The notes: generated from the letters alone by a model not told the origin. Shown: positions 25,560 through 30,801, counted from the stretch's first letter. The stretch is 64,000 bases of DNA from a virus (IMGVR_UViG_3300046747_000117); one strand, 5' to 3'. Program-made: numbers and translations.

Positions 25560-25592
25560 AAAAGGGCGCGCACCCGACCTGGATGCGCGCCC
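25560..25592 (-). terminator. Intrinsic terminator closing the Cas7-like operon
   Basis: Minus strand GGGCGCGCA-loop-TGCGCGCCC followed by TTTT, immediately after array A. Confidence 0.75.
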
Positions 25593-25830
25593 ACCTCGCC
25601 TCGCCCTACCAAGCCCCGCCACGCCGGACCCCGCCTAGCCCCGCCGCGCCCTACCCCGCCCGGCCCTGCCACGCCTCACCCCGGCAAACCCGACCGCGCC
25701 TCGCCTGACCTGACCACGCCCTGCCTCGCCGCGCCTCGCCTAACCACGGCGGGCCGCGCCAAGCCACACCTTGCCTAACCGGACCGTGCCCCGCCGGGCC
25801 ACACCCCACCTCGGCGCGCCACGCCGAACC
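25591..25830 (-). repeat. Array A: 48 in-phase GGY-NN pentamers (putative guide RNA)
   Basis: Plus strand reads NN-RCC every 5 nt with no indels. 45 of 48 units are GGY and 3 are GCC. Begins 2 nt after the stop of the Cas7-like gene. Confidence 0.95.
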
Positions 25831-25832
25831 TG

Positions 25833-26450
25833 TTACGCCTCGGAAACGCTGTATTTCACGACGCTAAACCGTCCGTAGGTTGGTCGAAAATCGCCAACGC
25901 CGCCGATCCTGCCAGCGAGCGTGACGACCTCGTGCAACTGATCCTGATTGACATATTCCGGTAGCGTCACCAAAAACCTGAAGTCACAGGTCCAGCCGAC
26001 CCGCATCGCCGGGCGGATTCTGTTGATGCCAGCACGCTGAATGACAACGCGGCGCCTGTCCTCGTAATCCCAGTCCTTTGTCCCAAAAGACGCCAGCGGC
26101 GTCAGCGAAACGATCGCCGCCTTGTAGAGATCCATGGCGGACTTTCTTGGAGAGCGCGGATCTTGCCTGAACTTCGAAGCCTGGATGATCGCGCCACGCA
26201 GGTATTCCCCGGGCATGCAGATCATTCCATTTTCGTCGCGATAGACATACGACTCGACATCGTCGGTCTTTTTCGCCGCGCTGTTTTTCGCGGCTTTCCC
26301 TTTGGTCTCAACGCTTTCCGCGTTCCACCGATGGAACAGAACATCGGCTGACCCTCGGATCGAGACATTCGCGACGTACGGCAGCTCAGAGTTGATCGCC
26401 TCTTTGCCGCCATTCGTTACGTTATCTGTTATTCGTACGACCTTCGCCAT
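25833..26450 (-). CDS. Cas7/RAMP-like RNA-binding protein (Vipr-like candidate effector)
   Basis: 205 aa. CMPGEYLRGAI resembles the RAMP IPGSSLKGAL motif. C-terminal Gly-rich loop AGRIGGVGDFRPTYGRF. RBS GGGGGA. Flanked by GGY-NN arrays. Confidence 0.8.
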   Translation of the reverse strand: MAKVVRITDNVTNGGKEAINSELPYVANVSIRGSADVLFHRWNAESVETKGKAAKNSAAKKTDDVESYVYRDENGMICMPGEYLRGAIIQASKFRQDPRSPRKSAMDLYKAAIVSLTPLASFGTKDWDYEDRRRVVIQRAGINRIRPAMRVGWTCDFRFLVTLPEYVNQDQLHEVVTLAGRIGGVGDFRPTYGRFSVVKYSVSEA

Positions 26451-26464
26451 TTATTCCCCCTGTG

Positions 26465-26574
26465 AAACCACGCCCGGCCAGACCCCACCTCGCCTGACCC
26501 CGCCCAGCCTCGCCTTGCCAGACCCAAGCCCGCCCAACCGCGCCGCGCCACGGCCAACCACGCCGCGCCACACC
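26465..26574 (-). repeat. Array B: 22 in-phase GGY-NN pentamers in the leader of the Cas7-like gene
   Basis: 20 of 22 units are GGY (one GCC, one GCT). Ends 14 nt before the ATG. Confidence 0.93.
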
Positions 26575-26579
26575 GCGAG

Positions 26580-26628
26580 AGATAGCCTAGCCGTAATTTT
26601 TTGACCGGGTCAAGGGGCTAGGCTATCT
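26580..26628. promoter_or_regulatory. Inverted-repeat divergent promoter/operator
   Basis: 13-bp perfect inverted repeat AGATAGCCTAGCC...GGCTAGGCTATCT enclosing the palindrome TTGACC-G-GGTCAA. On the minus strand, TTGACC-N18-TAGGCT precedes array B. Confidence 0.65.
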
Positions 26629-26635
26629 TATGGTC

Positions 26636-26839
26636 ATGCCAAGGGTGTTAAAATATCCTGAAAGAGCGCAGTGCAATGTCGTCGCCGGCACGCTCGCGGC
26701 CCTGGAGGCGCGGTTTGAGGCCGGCGACGATCACGCGAAGCTGTTGCGACGCATCGTCAGCAATTGGATACGCGACACCCCGGCGACTAACTCCAAAGAT
26801 CGCCCGCGACGTGGCCCACCGGAATCGTCTTCGCGGTGA
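26636..26839 (+). CDS. Small ribbon-helix-helix-like regulator, divergent from the Cas7-like operon
   Basis: MPRVLKYPERAQCNV...LAALEARF...HAKLLRRIVSNWI has a beta-helix-helix layout. Alternative ATG at 26630. Confidence 0.5.
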   Translation: MPRVLKYPERAQCNVVAGTLAALEARFEAGDDHAKLLRRIVSNWIRDTPATNSKDRPRRGPPESSSR

Positions 26840-27923
26840 TCTCAAAGGTGATCGCCGACAGCGCCGGGGACGACAGCCACACCGAGGGATGCGCCACGCT
26901 GTAAGCGGTGAAATCGGTCAGCATCAGGGTATGATACTGATCGATCGTCAAAACCGGAGGTGGCGGTGGGGGAGGCGGTGTGGCTGGCGGCGGGGGCGTG
27001 GGCGCTGGCGGTGGCGGCGTGGCTGGCGTGGGTGGCGTTCCGCCCAGGAAGCCGATCGGCGCCAGATCCAGCACCGGGCGCGCGACCACCGTGCCCCCCA
27101 ACGGATTCGCCAGGCCGAACACCGAATTGCCCGCGAACGATGTCAGTCCAACGCCCGTTGGATTGAGGATGCCGACGCCACCGGAACGATCGTTGACGAT
27201 CGTGTTGCCGGTCATCGACACGTTGTTGGACGGGTAGGCCAGGCCCTCCTCGCCATACGCGATGATGTTCTGGTTCGGACTGTTCGGCCCTTGCTCTATC
27301 GCATTATCAGCCAGATTGAGATTGCCACCATTAGGAATATCAACAGTATAACTCGCGTCAGAATTGCCATCAAAAAGTCGATTATTCGTGATCGTATTGT
27401 TGGCCGCACGGGACTTTACCTCGTGACCCTGATTGGCGTCATGGATGTAGCTGTTCGTGAGCGTGAAACTGGCGACCATGCCGATATAAATATCGTGCGT
27501 TCCACCCGAACCTCCCACGCCATTGAACGCGAACTCGGAACGATCGATCGTGATCGAGCCGTTCGGATCGGGCGCGCCGAGGATGCCGTCCTGATTGCCG
27601 TGAAAATACACGTCGTTCAGGGTCAGGTTGCCAGACTCGTAGCGCACGGCTGCGCCGTTGGCGTCGGGCACCGTTACGCCAGAGATATCGAACCCCGAGA
27701 TCGTTACGTTGCCGCCCTCATCGATCATCGCCTTGCCGTTCGGCGGCTGGATCGTTTCGGTCATCACGGCGAACCCGCCGACCGCCATGAGCGTGATGTC
27801 CTTGAACACCGACAGGAACTGGTTGACGTAAGATCCCGCCGCGACCTGGACGGTATCGCCTGGCTGCGCGCGGTCGATCGCCGCCTGGATGTCGCCACCC
27901 GCCTGCACCGTCAGTATCGCCAT
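26787..27923 (-). CDS. Right-handed parallel beta-helix (pectin-lyase-like) protein
   Basis: IQAAIDRAQPGDTVQVAAGSY...NGKA...GAAVRYESG...HDIYIG...GHEVKSRA. Pro-rich linker near the C-terminus. Confidence 0.8.
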   Translation of the reverse strand: MAILTVQAGGDIQAAIDRAQPGDTVQVAAGSYVNQFLSVFKDITLMAVGGFAVMTETIQPPNGKAMIDEGGNVTISGFDISGVTVPDANGAAVRYESGNLTLNDVYFHGNQDGILGAPDPNGSITIDRSEFAFNGVGGSGGTHDIYIGMVASFTLTNSYIHDANQGHEVKSRAANNTITNNRLFDGNSDASYTVDIPNGGNLNLADNAIEQGPNSPNQNIIAYGEEGLAYPSNNVSMTGNTIVNDRSGGVGILNPTGVGLTSFAGNSVFGLANPLGGTVVARPVLDLAPIGFLGGTPPTPATPPPPAPTPPPPATPPPPPPPPVLTIDQYHTLMLTDFTAYSVAHPSVWLSSPALSAITFEITAKTIPVGHVAGDLWS

Positions 27924-28171
27924 GGTCCGATTCCCCGTGGTTGCCCGCGGAGTCTAGCGCATTTCCGGGCGCGTCATGCCCGTGTCATTGGACATTCATG
28001 CTGCGGCGCAACATAATGCGCCATGAGACACATTATTGCAGCCGCGATATTGGCAGGAATCCTCACGAATTGCGCCCCCCCCGCACCGAGCCAGGGCTGG
28101 GGGGGCGCCTTCCCGGGTAACCCGATCGCCGTCTCGGTCTGGTCCCCGGCGGTTGAGTCAGCGGGCGACGG

Positions 28172-28870
28172 TCAGGGACCGTAACGCCGCCGACGACGGA
28201 CGACGGCGAGACCGGCCAGGCCCGTTCCCAAAACAGCCAAGGTCATGGGTTCCGGCGTGTCCACGATGACCGGATTGATCACGCAGTCCGGACAGGTCGT
28301 GTTCACCGGGATTTCCTCGGAGACCAGCGAGTAGTTGTTCTGGCTCCCGACCCAGTCGATCTTCAGCGCGGTGGTGTAGTTCGCCCATGATCCCGACGTG
28401 AGCGTGGCTTCAAAACCGATGACGATCGGACCTGACAACAACCCGACCGGCGTCGGCGGGATCAGCGTGTTGTCGAAGCAGTAGAACCCACCCGATCCGT
28501 CGCAGCCGCTCGACGCCAGCCCGCCGGGGACGAAGTTGAACCCGTTGGCGCCCAGGGTCGTCACGCCGTTAACGCGAACACCGACGACCTGACCGCTGGA
28601 GGGGTTGTTTTTGGACACCGTGTTAAACGCGATGGCGTTGATCCCGGTGCGCCCGCCGCGCGTGTCGGCGATCGAGTTCTCGCCCGCGATGACCAGCGCG
28701 AACTGTTCGGTGAGCGGATCGGCGGTGGCCTGGGCTTCCAGCGTGTAGACCAGGCCCTCGGTGGCGGCGTCAGGCCCCAGCGTGATCAGCGCGGCATGGG
28801 CCGGGGCCGAACACAGCGCGCCCGCGACGACGCCGATCGCCGCCGCGGTCGCGAGGAGGTAAGCCCTCAC
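28172..28870 (-). CDS. PEP-CTERM sorting-domain protein
   Basis: Signal peptide MRAYLLATAAAIG...PAHA and C-terminus TPEPMTLAVLGTGLAGLAVVRRRRR. Confidence 0.9.
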   Translation of the reverse strand: MRAYLLATAAAIGVVAGALCSAPAHAALITLGPDAATEGLVYTLEAQATADPLTEQFALVIAGENSIADTRGGRTGINAIAFNTVSKNNPSSGQVVGVRVNGVTTLGANGFNFVPGGLASSGCDGSGGFYCFDNTLIPPTPVGLLSGPIVIGFEATLTSGSWANYTTALKIDWVGSQNNYSLVSEEIPVNTTCPDCVINPVIVDTPEPMTLAVLGTGLAGLAVVRRRRRYGP

Positions 28871-29538
28871 GCCGGGAGACCCGCATGCGTATCTTTACGT
28901 ACCCGACGCCGGGCGACAGCGCCCAGGCCGATGAGGCCCACGCCCAGTAGCGCCAGCGAGGCCGGTTCCGGGGCGGCGGTGGTGGACGACGCCACGCCGC
29001 TGTAGGACGCCGAGAAACTCGCCAAGGTCGCGTTGTCCAGGGCGAGCGCGGGCGCCAGGTTGGACAATGACAACGTGAAGGTGTTCGGCGCGGCGAGATC
29101 CGCCGCCGCGATCACGCTGGACGTGAGCGAGAGGGTATCAGGCGGGTTGGCGACGTTGATGGACAATTGTTCGCCGGTCGCCAAACCAAACGCCGCGTCG
29201 GAAAACGTTCCGGAAAGGAAATTAGTTCCGGCGCCGCCTGCCAACGACGTGATGGCGAACGTCCCGCTGTAGTGCTGCAACAGCGCGGGACCGATGCCTT
29301 GCGCGGCGTCGATCGATGTCGCGTTGAGGTCGAGGAAGCCGGTGGTCGGCGCGTTGCCGAACAGTTGCGTGATCGAAATGGCGGAGTCGGTGGAGAGCGT
29401 GGTGGCCGTGCCCGCGCCGTTCGCGACCGCCGTCAGCGTGTTGGTGTCGGAAACCTGGCCGAACGCGATTATTTGTGTCGCATTCGCACTGACAGACAGG
29501 CCCAGGACGGCGACCGTGGCGAGGAGGAGGTTTCGCAT
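28867..29538 (-). CDS. PEP-CTERM sorting-domain protein
   Basis: Probable ATG 29538 (RBS AGGGG). Signal peptide MRNLLLATVAVLGLSVSANA and C-terminus APEPASLALLGVGLIGLGAVARRR. Confidence 0.9.
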   Translation of the reverse strand: MRNLLLATVAVLGLSVSANATQIIAFGQVSDTNTLTAVANGAGTATTLSTDSAISITQLFGNAPTTGFLDLNATSIDAAQGIGPALLQHYSGTFAITSLAGGAGTNFLSGTFSDAAFGLATGEQLSINVANPPDTLSLTSSVIAAADLAAPNTFTLSLSNLAPALALDNATLASFSASYSGVASSTTAAPEPASLALLGVGLIGLGAVARRRVRKDTHAGLPA

Positions 29539-29656
29539 GATGGTTCCCCTTGTATGTTTGGGGGAGTTTAATGCGCTGGCGGTGATCCGTCTCGCGAAAA
29601 CGTCACGTTGCAAAAACAGTGGGTTATGCCGCGAAACACCGAAACGACCGACATAG

Positions 29657-29674
29657 TGTAAAGCGCGCTTTACA
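29657..29674. promoter_or_regulatory. 18-bp perfect palindrome (operator candidate)
   Basis: TGTAAAGCGCGCTTTACA lies between the divergent PEP-CTERM and array C units. Confidence 0.55.
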
Positions 29675-29679
29675 TCGAT

Positions 29680-29720
29680 TTTCGCTGGAACGGCGGGCAG
29701 GAGCGGGCTAGGCTAGCCAT
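29680..29720 (+). promoter_or_regulatory. Promoter of array C
   Basis: TTTCGCTGGAAC-N17-TAGGCTAGCCAT, duplicated with identical spacing before array D. Confidence 0.7.
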
Positions 29721-30006
29721 TCACGGCGCGGCGCGGTGTGGCTTGGCGTGGCATGGCATGGCTTGGCGTGGCTGGGCGTGGCTTGGTTGGCCCGGGTCAG
29801 GCTTGGCGTGATTGGGCTTGCCGGGGCGTGGTGGGGCGAGGCCCGGCGTGGCAGGGCTTGCCATGGCCAGGCTGGGCAGGGCGGGCCGGGGCGGGGCGTG
29901 GCCGGGTTCGGCGAGGCATGGCAGGGCGGGGCCTGGTCAGGCTTGGTATGGTATGGGAGGCGTTTACGCCTCGGTCCCGTCCGGCTTCCCGCCGGGCGGG
30001 GCCATA
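29721..30006 (+). ncRNA. Stand-alone guide-like RNA C: 46 GGY-NN units (29725-29954) plus 3' double hairpin
   Basis: 41 of 46 units are GGY, in phase. Tail GAGGC-N6-GCCTC then GGTCCCGTCCGG-N7-CCGGGCGGGGCC. Confidence 0.75.
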
Positions 30007-30140
30007 AGCGCGGCTATCGCCATCCTCAACTCTTGGTTATGTCGTTTGAGGTCCGCGGCCACGCGTTCCAGGTCCGCGATCCTCGCCCGCAGCGACTCGA
30101 TGGAGTCCTCCGATGATGCCTGATCAAACACCGCAACCAT
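29964..30140 (-). CDS. Small coiled-coil protein overlapping the array C tail antisense
   Basis: Translated by hand: MVAVFDQASSEDSIESLRARIADLERVAADLKRHNQELRMAIAALMAPPGGKPDGTEA. Confidence 0.4.
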   Translation of the reverse strand: MVAVFDQASSEDSIESLRARIADLERVAADLKRHNQELRMAIAALMAPPGGKPDGTEA

Positions 30141-30274
30141 CCGCCCCTATAGTCACGGGCGAAGAGATAGCGAAATTCCTGGAGATTTACCGCATCCTCG
30201 CGCGGCCTGACGGGCCTGCGGAGCCGGTGGGCAAGGTCGAGACGTGGCTTGAGGCGTTGTCGCGCAGATGAACC

Positions 30275-30448
30275 TCATCGTCTCGCTTCTGCTTCGCTGA
30301 CTAGCCGGGCGAGCGTTTCCTCGAGCGCGTCAAGTTCGTCGCTGGCGGCGCGGAGGTCGTCCAGCCTCAGCATCAGCGTGACATAGGAGCTGTTCGGGAT
30401 GGAGGTGACGCGGGAGTCGAAGAGGCGGTGCAGGGCGACGATTTTCAT
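30275..30448 (-). CDS. Small hypothetical protein
   Basis: ATG 30448, MKIVALHRLFDS...EAEARR (57 aa), divergent from the array D promoter. Confidence 0.45.
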   Translation of the reverse strand: MKIVALHRLFDSRVTSIPNSSYVTLMLRLDDLRAASDELDALEETLARLVSEAEARR

Positions 30449-30458
30449 TGGCGACAAC

Positions 30459-30499
30459 TTTCGCTGGAGCGTTGGTCGGGTACCGGCTAGGCTAGCCAT
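30459..30499 (+). promoter_or_regulatory. Promoter of array D
   Basis: TTTCGCTGGAGC-N17-TAGGCTAGCCAT. Confidence 0.7.
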
Positions 30500-30705
30500 C
30501 CCGGCGCGGCCAGGCGGGGCATGGCGCGGCTTGGCGTGGTTGGGCTTGGCGGGGCATGGCGGGGCGGGGCCTGGCAGGGTCTGGCGCGGCGTGGCTTGGT
30601 TGGGCTTGCCCTGGCGTGGTTGGGCGCGGTTCGGCGTGGCTTGGCAAGGTATGGTGAGGCTCTCGTGCCTCGGCCCCGTCTGGCTTCCCCCCGGACGGGG
30701 CCATA
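30500..30705 (+). ncRNA. Stand-alone guide-like RNA D: 31 GGY-NN units (30503-30657) plus 3' double hairpin
   Basis: 30 of 31 units are GGY. Tail GAGGC-N6-GCCTC then GGCCCCGTCTGG-N7-CCGGACGGGGCC. Confidence 0.75.
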
Positions 30706-30708
30706 GCG

Positions 30709-30801
30709 TCAAAACACGGAATCCAACCATAGCCTGGCGATCGCCAAGCCCGCGAGCCACACCACGCCGCACAGGAGCGCCAGGGCAAGGGCGGTCCTCA
30801 A
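30709..30801 (-). CDS. 30-aa membrane peptide
   Basis: TTG start overlapping the upstream stop (TTGA). MRTALALALLCGVVWLAGLAIARLWLDSVF. Confidence 0.4.
   Translation of the reverse strand: MRTALALALLCGVVWLAGLAIARLWLDSVF

What the first reader, a model, noticed from the sequence alone, without database searches (positions are those of the whole stretch)
25560..30705. Phage-encoded RNA-guided system candidate: Cas7/RAMP-like gene plus four (GGY-NN)n pentamer arrays
Seen: four non-coding arrays (25591-25830 minus, 26465-26574 minus, 29725-29954 plus, 30503-30657 plus) total 147 pentamers with no indels. 136 begin with GGY and the last two bases vary freely. Two arrays flank a 205-aa gene with RAMP-type motifs inside one promoter-to-terminator unit. 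The other two are separate units with a shared promoter and 3' structure. Established: Cas7/RAMP proteins oligomerise along a guide RNA with fixed periodicity. Inference: each GGY is a subunit-binding handle and the NN dinucleotides form an interleaved, non-contiguous guide, so this would be a CRISPR-like effector with no CRISPR repeats, spacers or Cas1/2. From memory this matches the recently reported VIPR systems (Vipr protein plus GGY/NN RNAs acting against competing phages). I cannot verify that here, nor whether this four-array layout is new.
Basis: partly seen in the sequence, partly recalled or inferred. Interest (0 to 1): 0.97.

Follow-up and report, generated by a model that had tools for sequence, protein, structure and literature searches.

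The report
Soil phage VIPR guide-RNA system
This soil phage carries a VIPR system, a CRISPR-related RNA-guided DNA-silencing system first described in 2026 preprints: one small Cas7-like protein plus four guide-RNA genes built from GGY-NN five-base repeats. It is a well-supported new example of a known kind.

Summary
There are four phase-locked arrays of 147 pentamers. Base 1 is G and base 3 is C or T in all 147, and 136 read GGY. No other such array occurs in the 64-kb window.

The 205-aa gene (25833-26450, minus) is a Vipr homologue. It matches the solved SUSP1 Vipr protein by sequence (E 5e-7, profile E 8.6e-18). Its model (pLDDT 93.8) hits only Csm3/Cas7 folds, and the GGY-contacting residues are kept. 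The kind is in print, and this scan has already noted it more than 100 times on other DNA.

New details:
- The arrays are long (22-48 units, up to 149 in a 96% relative) and differ between phage strains that are 98.7-99.8% identical.
- Two arrays are stand-alone genes with a conserved promoter box and a two-hairpin tail.
- No accessory (vap) gene is adjacent.
- Guides of two relatives spell conserved motifs of this window's vipr (21/22, codon phase).
- Nineteen units of the downstream array spell the GGYNN frame itself, so they may target VIPR arrays.

Natural targets of the window's own guides remain unresolved, and no expression data were listed.

The parts
25833..26450 (-). vipr gene, 205 aa (P0001): a minimal RAMP (Cas7-like) protein. 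SD GGGGGA lies at 26455-26460.
   Evidence: phmmer hit to PDB 36pp_D 'SUSP1 Vipr protein' at E 5e-7; profile E 8.6e-18 over nearly the full length. phrog_4652 E 4.7e-16. AF2 pLDDT 93.8. Foldseek top hits are Csm3/Cas7 at probability 1.0. H40, R146, D187, F188 and R189 align with the SUSP1 GGY contacts H17, R138, D177, W178 and R179 and are conserved in 72 relatives.
26465..26574 (-). Array A2: 22 GGY-NN units in the 5' leader of vipr. It ends 14 nt before the ATG and has no tail of its own.
   Evidence: The position next to the ribosome-binding site is kept in L090 and L092 (96% and 87% Vipr identity), where the array has 61 and 30 units.
25591..25830 (-). Array A1: 48 units, starting 2 nt after the vipr stop and running into the terminator.
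   Evidence: Strain variants have 45 units.
25611..25705 (-). Units 25-43 of A1. Read by the 1-nt-skip code, their NN string spells the GGYNN frame itself (5-unit cycle GG / NN / GY / NG / YN).
   Evidence: 22 of 22 constrained positions are met over 19 units. In 5000 shuffles the mean maximum was 6.5 and the largest 16. The next best of 133 arrays in relatives scores 9. There were 114 hits of at least 17/20 inside other loci's arrays, against 0 with unit order shuffled. TRF finds period 25 here.
25564..25592 (-). Intrinsic terminator of the A2-vipr-A1 unit.
   Evidence: 12-bp stem with 10 GC pairs, followed by TTTTCG. Conserved in L090 and L092.
26581..26627 (.). Palindromic divergent promoter region. 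For the minus strand: -35 TTGACC (26608-26613), 18-nt spacer, -10 TAGGCT (26584-26589). For the plus strand: TTGACC (26601-26606), 17-nt spacer, TATCTT. Flanked by the 12-bp inverted repeat GATAGCCTAGCC / GGCTAGGCTATC.
   Evidence: Read from the sequence. The plus-strand promoter is found by the scan. The region is conserved in L090 and L092. Function is inferred.
26630..26839 (+). 69-aa ORF transcribed divergently from vipr. By eye it looks like a ribbon-helix-helix protein and may be a regulator.
   Evidence: Conserved in L090 and L093. No Pfam or PHROG hit. The atlas gives only a weak RHH_1 lead.
29680..30005 (+). Stand-alone vrRNA gene A3: box TTTCGCTGGAAC (29680-29691), 17 nt, TAGGCT (29709-29714), 46 units (29725-29954), then a two-hairpin tail (29955-30005).
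   Evidence: (17 pairs, 2 with compensatory changes).
30459..30704 (+). Stand-alone vrRNA gene A4: box TTTCGCTGGAGC (30459-30470), 17 nt, TAGGCT (30488-30493), 31-32 units (30503-30657/30662), then a two-hairpin tail ending at 30704.
   Evidence: The first 7 units are shared with strain variants and L092, while the rest of the array is replaced.
30578..30632 (+). A4 units 15-25: the best candidate guide of this window with a natural target.
   Evidence: 20 of 22 NN positions match the 30-aa membrane-peptide ORF of relative L092 (L092:5751-5782), with the skip base on the wobble position. The window's own allele matches 14/22. The score exceeds all 200 shuffles when tested against L090 plus L092.
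26043..26075 (-). Predicted footprint of a rival guide (L092:10630-10694) on this vipr, at codons DWDYEDRRRVV.
   Evidence: 21/22 in codon phase 0; the guide matches L092's own vipr only 16/22. In all of IMG/VR the exact pattern occurs twice, both times inside vipr genes.
25864..25895 (+). Predicted footprint of a second rival guide (L001:6630-6704) on the antisense strand of vipr, over the G-loop codons.
   Evidence: 21/22 here; 18/22 against L001's own gene.
29976..30013 (-). Possible footprint of a guide of relative L090 on the tail of A3.
   Evidence: 18/20, extending to 22/24. This is weaker statistically than the vipr footprints.

Best explanation
The locus is a VIPR (Viral Interference Programmable Repeat) system of an uncultivated soil or rhizosphere tailed phage.

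Inferred transcription: three promoters give three transcripts. One carries array A2, vipr and array A1 and ends at an intrinsic terminator. The other two are stand-alone vrRNAs (A3, A4), each with a conserved upstream box and a two-hairpin 3' tail.

Inferred mechanism, by homology with the solved SUSP1 complex: one Vipr protomer binds each pentamer, adjacent protomers clamp the GGY bases, and the NN dinucleotides are exposed along a helical filament. The filament pairs with double-stranded DNA while skipping every third base, and it blocks transcription of the bound gene. No nuclease or helicase partner is encoded nearby, so silencing rather than cutting is expected.

Inferred biological role: competition with related phages or other mobile elements in the same host.

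Shown here: the repeat anatomy, the protein's homology and fold, the link between gene and arrays across relatives, the validity of the skip code in this clade, and rapid turnover of array content between strains.

Not shown: expression, processing of the long arrays, RNP formation, and the real targets of this phage's own guides.
For: - Arrays.
- Protein: PDB 36pp_D E 5e-7, profile E 8.6e-18, AF2 pLDDT 93.8, Foldseek hits to Csm3/Cas7 only, GGY-contact residues conserved.
- Association: 65/80 relatives carry arrays, and 169/178 arrays lie on the gene's strand.
- Phage context: terminase, portal, major head protein, tail proteins, primase and helicase. The DNA is held in soil and rhizosphere metagenomes.
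- Skip code valid in this clade: guides from 5 loci (about 3-4 independent phages; L093 duplicates L092, and L030 and L031 gave only 7 of the hits) hit vipr genes in 102 of the 107 loci scanned (not dereplicated) at 18/20 or better. That is 326 hits against 0 for shuffled guides, all in one codon phase. The only two exact IMG/VR matches of one such guide lie in vipr genes.
- Tail structure with covariation. Conserved promoter boxes.
- Published mechanism: 10.64898/2026.04.26.720920, 10.64898/2026.04.26.720927, 10.64898/2026.10.15.759431.
Against: - No RNA data were listed.
- No exact 10-11-unit target of the window's own guides was found in IMG/VR or in JGI metagenomes (one search gave one chance hit in an AT-rich repeat).
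- The arrays are 22-48 units long, whereas the characterised vrRNAs have 9-16. In relatives, the guides with clear targets sit in short 13-15-unit arrays. It is therefore open how, or whether, the long arrays are used as guides.
- No vap gene is present.
- A2 has no 3' tail.
Confidence: 0.92

Rival explanations
1. Only short parts of the long arrays act as guides, or none do. The rest would serve another purpose: a reservoir for recombination, a sponge or scaffold that titrates Vipr (A2 next to the ribosome-binding site could give translational feedback), or a decoy for rivals' array-directed guides.
For: In relatives, the guides with clear targets lie in 13-15-unit arrays, each followed by non-repeat sequence that separates it from the next array; in L001 that sequence holds a hairpin. 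No strong target was found for any 10-11-unit window of the four arrays. Array length changes freely between near-identical strains. A2 ends 14 nt before the ATG in all relatives.
Against: GGY is kept in 136/147 units along the whole length, and all 16 NN occur, which fits protein binding plus variable guides. The preprint mentions staggered arrays that are processed into overlapping vrRNAs. The exact-match searches were insensitive, because they tolerate no mismatch.
Confidence: 0.25
2. The system mainly regulates the phage itself or its own VIPR locus, rather than attacking competitors. The A1 segment that spells the GGYNN frame would bind the phage's own arrays.
For: A1 units 28-37 match A1's own DNA 18/20, and arrays A2 and A3 16/20. 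Over 14 units the phage's own arrays score 22/28, against a median of 20/28 for all arrays.
Against: Outside the arrays no self-match exceeds noise (16/20 under every skip rule). The published systems avoid self-targets. Match to the phage's own arrays is mostly the 60% that the frame alone provides.
Confidence: 0.12
3. The arrays are protein-coding or simple-sequence DNA without an RNA function.
For: Gene callers call ORFs across such arrays, for example a 249-aa ORF over the L092 array.
Against: A period of 5 is not a multiple of 3. Strain variants differ by 5-nt steps (46 vs 47 units, 22 vs 21 units). The strict G-x-Y pattern and the constant link to a Vipr gene are unexplained by coding or slippage.
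Confidence: 0.01

Closest known systems
Type II VIPR system of Escherichia phage SUSP1 (and the Pseudomonas fulva prophage): bioRxiv 10.64898/2026.04.26.720920, 10.64898/2026.04.26.720927; PDB 36pp
   Same: Homologous Vipr protein with a single RRM, G-loop and thumb, and conserved GGY contacts. GGY-NN pentamer RNAs lie both upstream and downstream of vipr. The repeat tract is followed by a structured 3' tail. The system is phage-borne and has no CRISPR array or cas genes.
   Different: Only about 25% identical over the aligned part. Arrays have 22-48 uninterrupted units instead of 9-16. No vap1 or other adjacent accessory gene is present. Two vrRNA genes lie 3-4 kb away on the opposite strand with their own promoter box. 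The tail is two hairpins, not the SUSP1 pseudoknot, and is specific to this phage lineage. I could not assign one of the seven published types from the text available.
vipr-targeting and vrRNA-targeting guides and solo vrRNAs of SUSP1-family phages and F5 satellites (bioRxiv 10.64898/2026.10.15.759431)
   Same: In this distant clade too, relatives carry guides that spell conserved vipr codons with the skip base on the wobble position and match their own gene less well. One guide may hit a vrRNA tail. A3 and A4 are separate vrRNA genes away from vipr.
   Different: This phage keeps its own vipr. The A1 segment spells the repeat frame itself over 19 units, rather than a repeat-tail junction. Self-avoidance in the relatives works through Arg codon-family switches (CGN to AGR).
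Cas7/Csm3 backbone subunits of type III and type VII CRISPR-Cas effectors
   Same: Same fold (Foldseek probability 1.0, TM 0.5-0.6), and the same principle of one subunit per fixed RNA step with a thumb that interrupts pairing.
   Different: The step is 5 nt rather than 6. There are no repeat-spacer array, no Cas10/Cas5/Cas6, no adaptation genes and no second RRM. The published target is double-stranded DNA read with a gapped code.

Membership tests
VIPR system | Vipr protein: a homologue of the characterised Vipr RAMP | tested here: met
   PDB 36pp_D SUSP1 Vipr at E 5e-7; profile of 72 relatives E 8.6e-18 over chain residues 5-189.
VIPR system | Minimal RAMP fold with one RRM, a glycine-rich loop and a thumb | tested here: met
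   AF2 pLDDT 93.8. The top 50 Foldseek hits are all Csm3/Cas7-type subunits. G-loop GGVGDFRPTYGRF (184-195) and beta-hairpin 129-149.
VIPR system | Residues that hold G1, G2 and Y3 of the repeat (SUSP1 H17, R138, D177, W178, R179) | tested here: met
   They align with H40, R146, D187, F188 and R189. In 72 relatives: H 58, R 71, D 66, aromatic in most, R 70.
VIPR system | Tandem GGY/NN pentamer repeats next to vipr, with conserved GGY and variable NN | tested here: met
   In relatives, 65/80 loci carry arrays.
VIPR system | Conserved structured 3' tail after the repeat tract | tested here: inconclusive
   Met for A3 and A4: two hairpins, 17 pairs, 2 covarying. A1 ends in a terminator hairpin, and A2 has no tail.
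VIPR system | Accessory vap gene beside vipr (typical, not universal) | tested here: not met
   No ORF lies in the operon. Across 98 loci no universal neighbour exists; only 10 share a 142-aa ORF directly downstream, and the window is not among them.
VIPR system | Guides match natural targets by the 1-nt-skip rule | tested here: inconclusive
   The clade as a whole meets it: 326 hits against 0, one codon phase, and exact IMG/VR hits only in vipr. For the window's own guides the best match is A4 against the L092 small ORF at 20/22. No exact match was found in the collections.
VIPR system | vrRNAs are expressed and co-purify with Vipr | not testable with these tools
   No RNA run was listed for the locus.
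VIPR system | Encoded on a virus or provirus | tested here: met
   The window encodes terminase, portal, major head protein, tail proteins, primase and helicase.
CRISPR-Cas (class 1) | Repeat-spacer array and further cas genes (Cas5/6/8/10, Cas1/2) | tested here: not met
   No Rfam family of any kind, CRISPR repeats included, reaches threshold. TRF finds no 25-40-nt repeat with spacers. Neighbouring genes are phage tail genes, a beta-helix protein, PEP-CTERM proteins and small ORFs. Not every ORF of the window was scanned.

The most novel reading that the evidence does not exclude
The 3' part of array A1 is a selected guide against the GGYNN repeat backbone itself. It would be a generic weapon against rival VIPR arrays, or a feedback device on the phage's own arrays. 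More broadly, the long arrays of this lineage would be strings of exchangeable guide cassettes that turn over between phage strains, much as CRISPR spacers do. Supporting detail: across the three 25-nt repeats of the A1 segment, the four positions that must be G never vary, the two that must be Y change only C/T, and all four free positions vary.
Probability: 0.3. Interest if true: 0.6.

Novelty: new member of a known kind. Interest (0 to 1): 0.38.

Why it matters
The case adds a high-GC soil phage lineage, far from the studied E. coli and Pseudomonas systems, with a compact and clearly delimited set of parts: three promoters, four arrays, a defined tail and no accessory gene. That makes it a convenient test bed for three open questions: how very long vrRNA arrays are processed, whether a vap gene is dispensable, and how guide content turns over. 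The clade-wide result is an independent computational confirmation of the published code and of VIPR-against-VIPR conflict outside Enterobacteriaceae: guides spell conserved vipr motifs in codon phase, and their owners escape through Arg CGN-to-AGR codon switches. It does not reveal a new kind of system.

Tried and rejected
- A single-sequence fold gave pLDDT 34 and was discarded.
- Pfam and Rfam give nothing for the protein or the arrays. No hammerhead or other ribozyme lies between arrays in 14 relatives.
- Self-targets in the window: the best score is 16/20 under every skip rule, which is noise.
- Exact gapped-pattern scans found nothing: A4 units 15-25, the A1-derived array target, and four further 10-unit windows of A1-A3 in IMG/VR. 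A4 units 16-25 in JGI metagenomes gave one chance hit in an AT-rich tandem repeat.
- The weaker hits of A1, A2 and A4 in L007, L013 and L081 look like noise on inspection: low scores, and one crosses a stop codon in the guide's reading frame. A3 against the 50-aa ORF of L090 and L092 is 18/22, p about 0.07.
- The specific array targeted by the A1 frame-spelling segment cannot be named. The best scores in relatives (19/20, 26/28) are within what the frame plus chance gives.
- Host identification failed. No whole genome is held, and genome hits are MAG contigs from many phyla.
- The tail model finds no further members outside this lineage.
- The complex prediction was not used, because filament formation depends on RNA.


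Full report
**Observation.** In one phase each they hold 48, 22, 46 and 31 pentamers, of which 45, 20, 41 and 30 begin with GGY; the other phases give 0-2. Position 1 is G and position 3 is a pyrimidine in all 147 units. The 11 exceptions all change position 2 (10 C, 1 A). Positions 4 and 5 carry 1.81 and 1.91 bits, and all 16 dinucleotides occur. A detector run on both strands of the 64-kb window finds these four arrays and nothing else. Array 4 can be read one unit further (to 30662), into the first tail hairpin.

**The protein.** ORF 25833-26450 (minus, 205 aa, P0001) has no Pfam family. It does match phrog_4652 (E 4.7e-16) and, by plain phmmer, the solved chain 36pp_D, 'SUSP1 Vipr protein' (E 5e-7). 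A profile of 72 relatives raises this to E 8.6e-18 over nearly the whole chain. Folded with that alignment, the model has pLDDT 93.8; a single-sequence fold had failed. The best 50 Foldseek matches in the PDB are all Csm3/Cas7-type subunits of type III, VII and III-E effectors. The residues that the cryo-EM preprint names as holding G1, G2 and Y3 (H17, R138, D177, W178, R179) align with H40, R146, D187, F188 and R189, which are conserved among the 72 relatives. The family is large: 7489 clusters at 90% identity with E up to 0.001, and 1171 representatives at 50% identity.

**Literature.** VIPR systems are described in three 2026 preprints. They report a Vipr RAMP protein plus vrRNAs of alternating GGY/NN, with one protomer per repeat. 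The NN pair with double-stranded DNA while skipping every third base. The complex silences transcription, is mostly phage-borne, and targets competing phages, satellites, and rival vipr genes and vrRNAs. This scan has also noted VIPR loci more than 100 times in other genomes.

**Context.** The window is a tailed-phage genome with terminase, portal, major head protein, tail fibre and spike proteins, primase and helicase. Near-identical DNA sits in many soil and rhizosphere metagenomes. No whole genome and no host could be established.

**Anatomy.** On the minus strand, a promoter-like pair (TTGACC 26608-26613, 18 nt, TAGGCT 26584-26589) lies in a palindromic divergent region. It is followed by A2 (22 units), a Shine-Dalgarno sequence, vipr, A1 (48 units) and a strong intrinsic terminator. 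A 69-aa ORF that looks like a ribbon-helix-helix protein by eye is transcribed divergently and is conserved in relatives.

- A3 and A4 lie 3.3 and 4.1 kb away on the other strand, beyond a beta-helix gene and two PEP-CTERM genes.
- Each has the box TTTCGCTGGA(A/G)C, 17 nt, TAGGCT, then the array roughly 10 nt further on, then a tail of two hairpins. These elements are conserved in the 96% and 87% relatives L090 and L092.
- The tail has 17 predicted pairs, two with compensatory changes. A covariance model finds it only in this lineage.
- No vap-like partner is adjacent, and no universal neighbour exists in 98 related loci.

**Relatives.** Of 80 IMG/VR loci encoding relatives (52-81% identity), 65 have at least one array within 6 kb, and 169 of 178 arrays lie on the gene's strand. 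The median length is 14 units and the maximum 142.

Contigs that encode the identical Vipr protein and are 98.7-99.8% identical in DNA differ in their arrays. A1 has 48 or 45 units. A3 has 46 or 47. A4 has 32, 22 or 21 units, with the first seven shared and the rest replaced. The 96% relative has arrays of 61 and 149 units, and the 87% relative one of 146. Off-consensus GCC units are conserved in blocks between diverged relatives.

**Is the skip code valid here?** I implemented the published rule (NN, one skipped base, same 5'-3' order as the non-target strand). I then scanned all 195 arrays of at least 10 units against the vipr genes in 107 loci (not dereplicated).

- There were 326 hits of at least 18/20, against 0 for guides with shuffled unit order. 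All sense hits were in codon phase 0 and all antisense hits in phase 1. Only one hit was a self hit.
- The hits come from five loci, which are about three or four independent phages. They are dominated by a 13-unit array of L092 and a 15-unit array of L001, each lying directly after its own vipr.
- The L092 guide spells DWDYEDRRRVV. It matches the window's vipr 21/22 but its own gene only 16/22, because its own gene uses AAG AGA AGA where the window has AGG CGC CGC.
- The L001 guide spells the antisense of the G-loop codons. It matches the window 21/22 and its own gene 18/22.
- As a positive control for the collection scans, the exact L092 pattern occurs twice in all of IMG/VR, both times inside vipr genes on the sense strand.

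The window's vipr is therefore a predicted target of rival phages. A guide of L090 may also cover the tail of A3 (22/24).

**Targets of the window's own guides.**

- No self-target rises above noise.
- Among related loci, the best match outside arrays is A4 units 15-25 against a 30-aa membrane-peptide ORF that lies next to the distal vrRNA gene in L092. It scores 20/22 with the skip base on the wobble position, against 14/22 for the window's own allele. This exceeds all 200 shuffles in a test restricted to L090 and L092, although that restriction was chosen after seeing the hit.
- A3 against the neighbouring 50-aa ORF is weaker (18/22, p about 0.07).
- Exact-pattern scans of IMG/VR and the JGI metagenomes found no perfect 10-11-unit target for six windows of the arrays.

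These targets remain unresolved.

**A guide that spells the repeat.** Under the skip code, units 25-43 of A1 (25611-25705) follow a five-unit cycle GG / NN / GY / NG / YN. That is what a guide needs in order to pair in register with GGYNN DNA.

- All 22 constrained positions are met. In 5000 shuffles of the window's units the mean maximum was 6.5 and the largest 16.
- Among 133 arrays of non-redundant relatives the next best value is 9.
- The segment gives 114 hits of at least 17/20 inside other loci's arrays, against none after shuffling.
- Part of the segment is a 25-nt tandem repeat, which inflates the run statistic. However, across its three copies the four positions that must be G never vary, the two that must be Y change only between C and T, and the four free positions all vary. 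That pattern argues for selection on the code.
- The frame alone gives 60% match to any array. Best scores in relatives (26/28) and in the window's own arrays (22/28) are not far apart.

I therefore cannot say whether this segment is aimed at rivals, at the phage's own arrays, or at nothing.

**Verdict.** Features not found in the preprint text I could read:

- the long uninterrupted arrays and their strain-level turnover;
- the stand-alone vrRNA genes with their own promoter box and hairpin tail;
- the lack of a vap gene;
- the frame-spelling segment of A1.

I could not see the preprints' figures or data tables, so I do not claim these are undescribed. Expression, processing and real targets remain untested.

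Noticed in passing
window 26787-29538 (minus): A right-handed beta-helix protein (378 aa) and two tandem PEP-CTERM proteins (232 and 223 aa) lie between the vipr operon and the stand-alone vrRNA genes. They are conserved in relatives L090 and L092. A phage carrying PEP-CTERM cargo suggests a host with an exosortase system.
   Followed up: partly
window 30709-30801 (minus); L092:5733-5825; L082, L090 homologues: A 30-aa membrane-peptide ORF lies convergent to the A4 tail. Its sequence differs between strains and relatives (…LLCGVVWLA…, …LLCFVVWAS…, …ILCIVVWGA…). The L092 allele is the best candidate target of the window's A4 guide.
   Followed up: partly
L092:10630-10694 and L001:6630-6704: Short arrays directly after vipr in two relatives spell conserved Vipr motifs (DWDYEDRRRVV; the antisense of GDFRPTYGRF). 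They match most vipr genes of the clade, while the owner's own gene escapes through CGN-to-AGR arginine codon switches.
   Followed up: yes
window arrays A1-A3; L090 and L092 arrays: Off-consensus units are almost always GCC. They are conserved in blocks between diverged relatives (for example GGCGT GATTG GGCTT GCCGG GGCGT GGTGG in the window's A3 and in L092). In A1 they fall at units 3, 16 and 29 (counting from 0), a spacing of 13 units. No explanation was found.
   Followed up: partly
L092:10761-11510; L093:1629-2378: Gene callers report a 249-aa ORF that is in fact the 146-unit pentamer array. Spurious 'proteins' of this kind also cluster across many loci.
   Followed up: yes
L081 (Phage DSL-LC04, OR003939.1:22429-23046): The only GenBank phage hit (60% identity) has its Vipr homologue annotated as 'helix-turn-helix transcriptional regulator'. 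Three arrays of 10-20 units precede the gene, and a 147-aa ORF overlaps its stop codon.
   Followed up: partly
L039:3401-3477 (minus): A type-P5 twister ribozyme match (40 bits, gathering score 37.6) lies about 2.5 kb upstream of a vipr relative.
   Followed up: no
window 26581-26627: The box GGCTAGGCTA, shared by all three vrRNA promoters, is itself two GGYNN units. In the vipr promoter it forms a perfect 12-bp inverted repeat around TTGACC-C-GGTCAA. It may be an operator for the divergent 69-aa ORF.
   Followed up: partly
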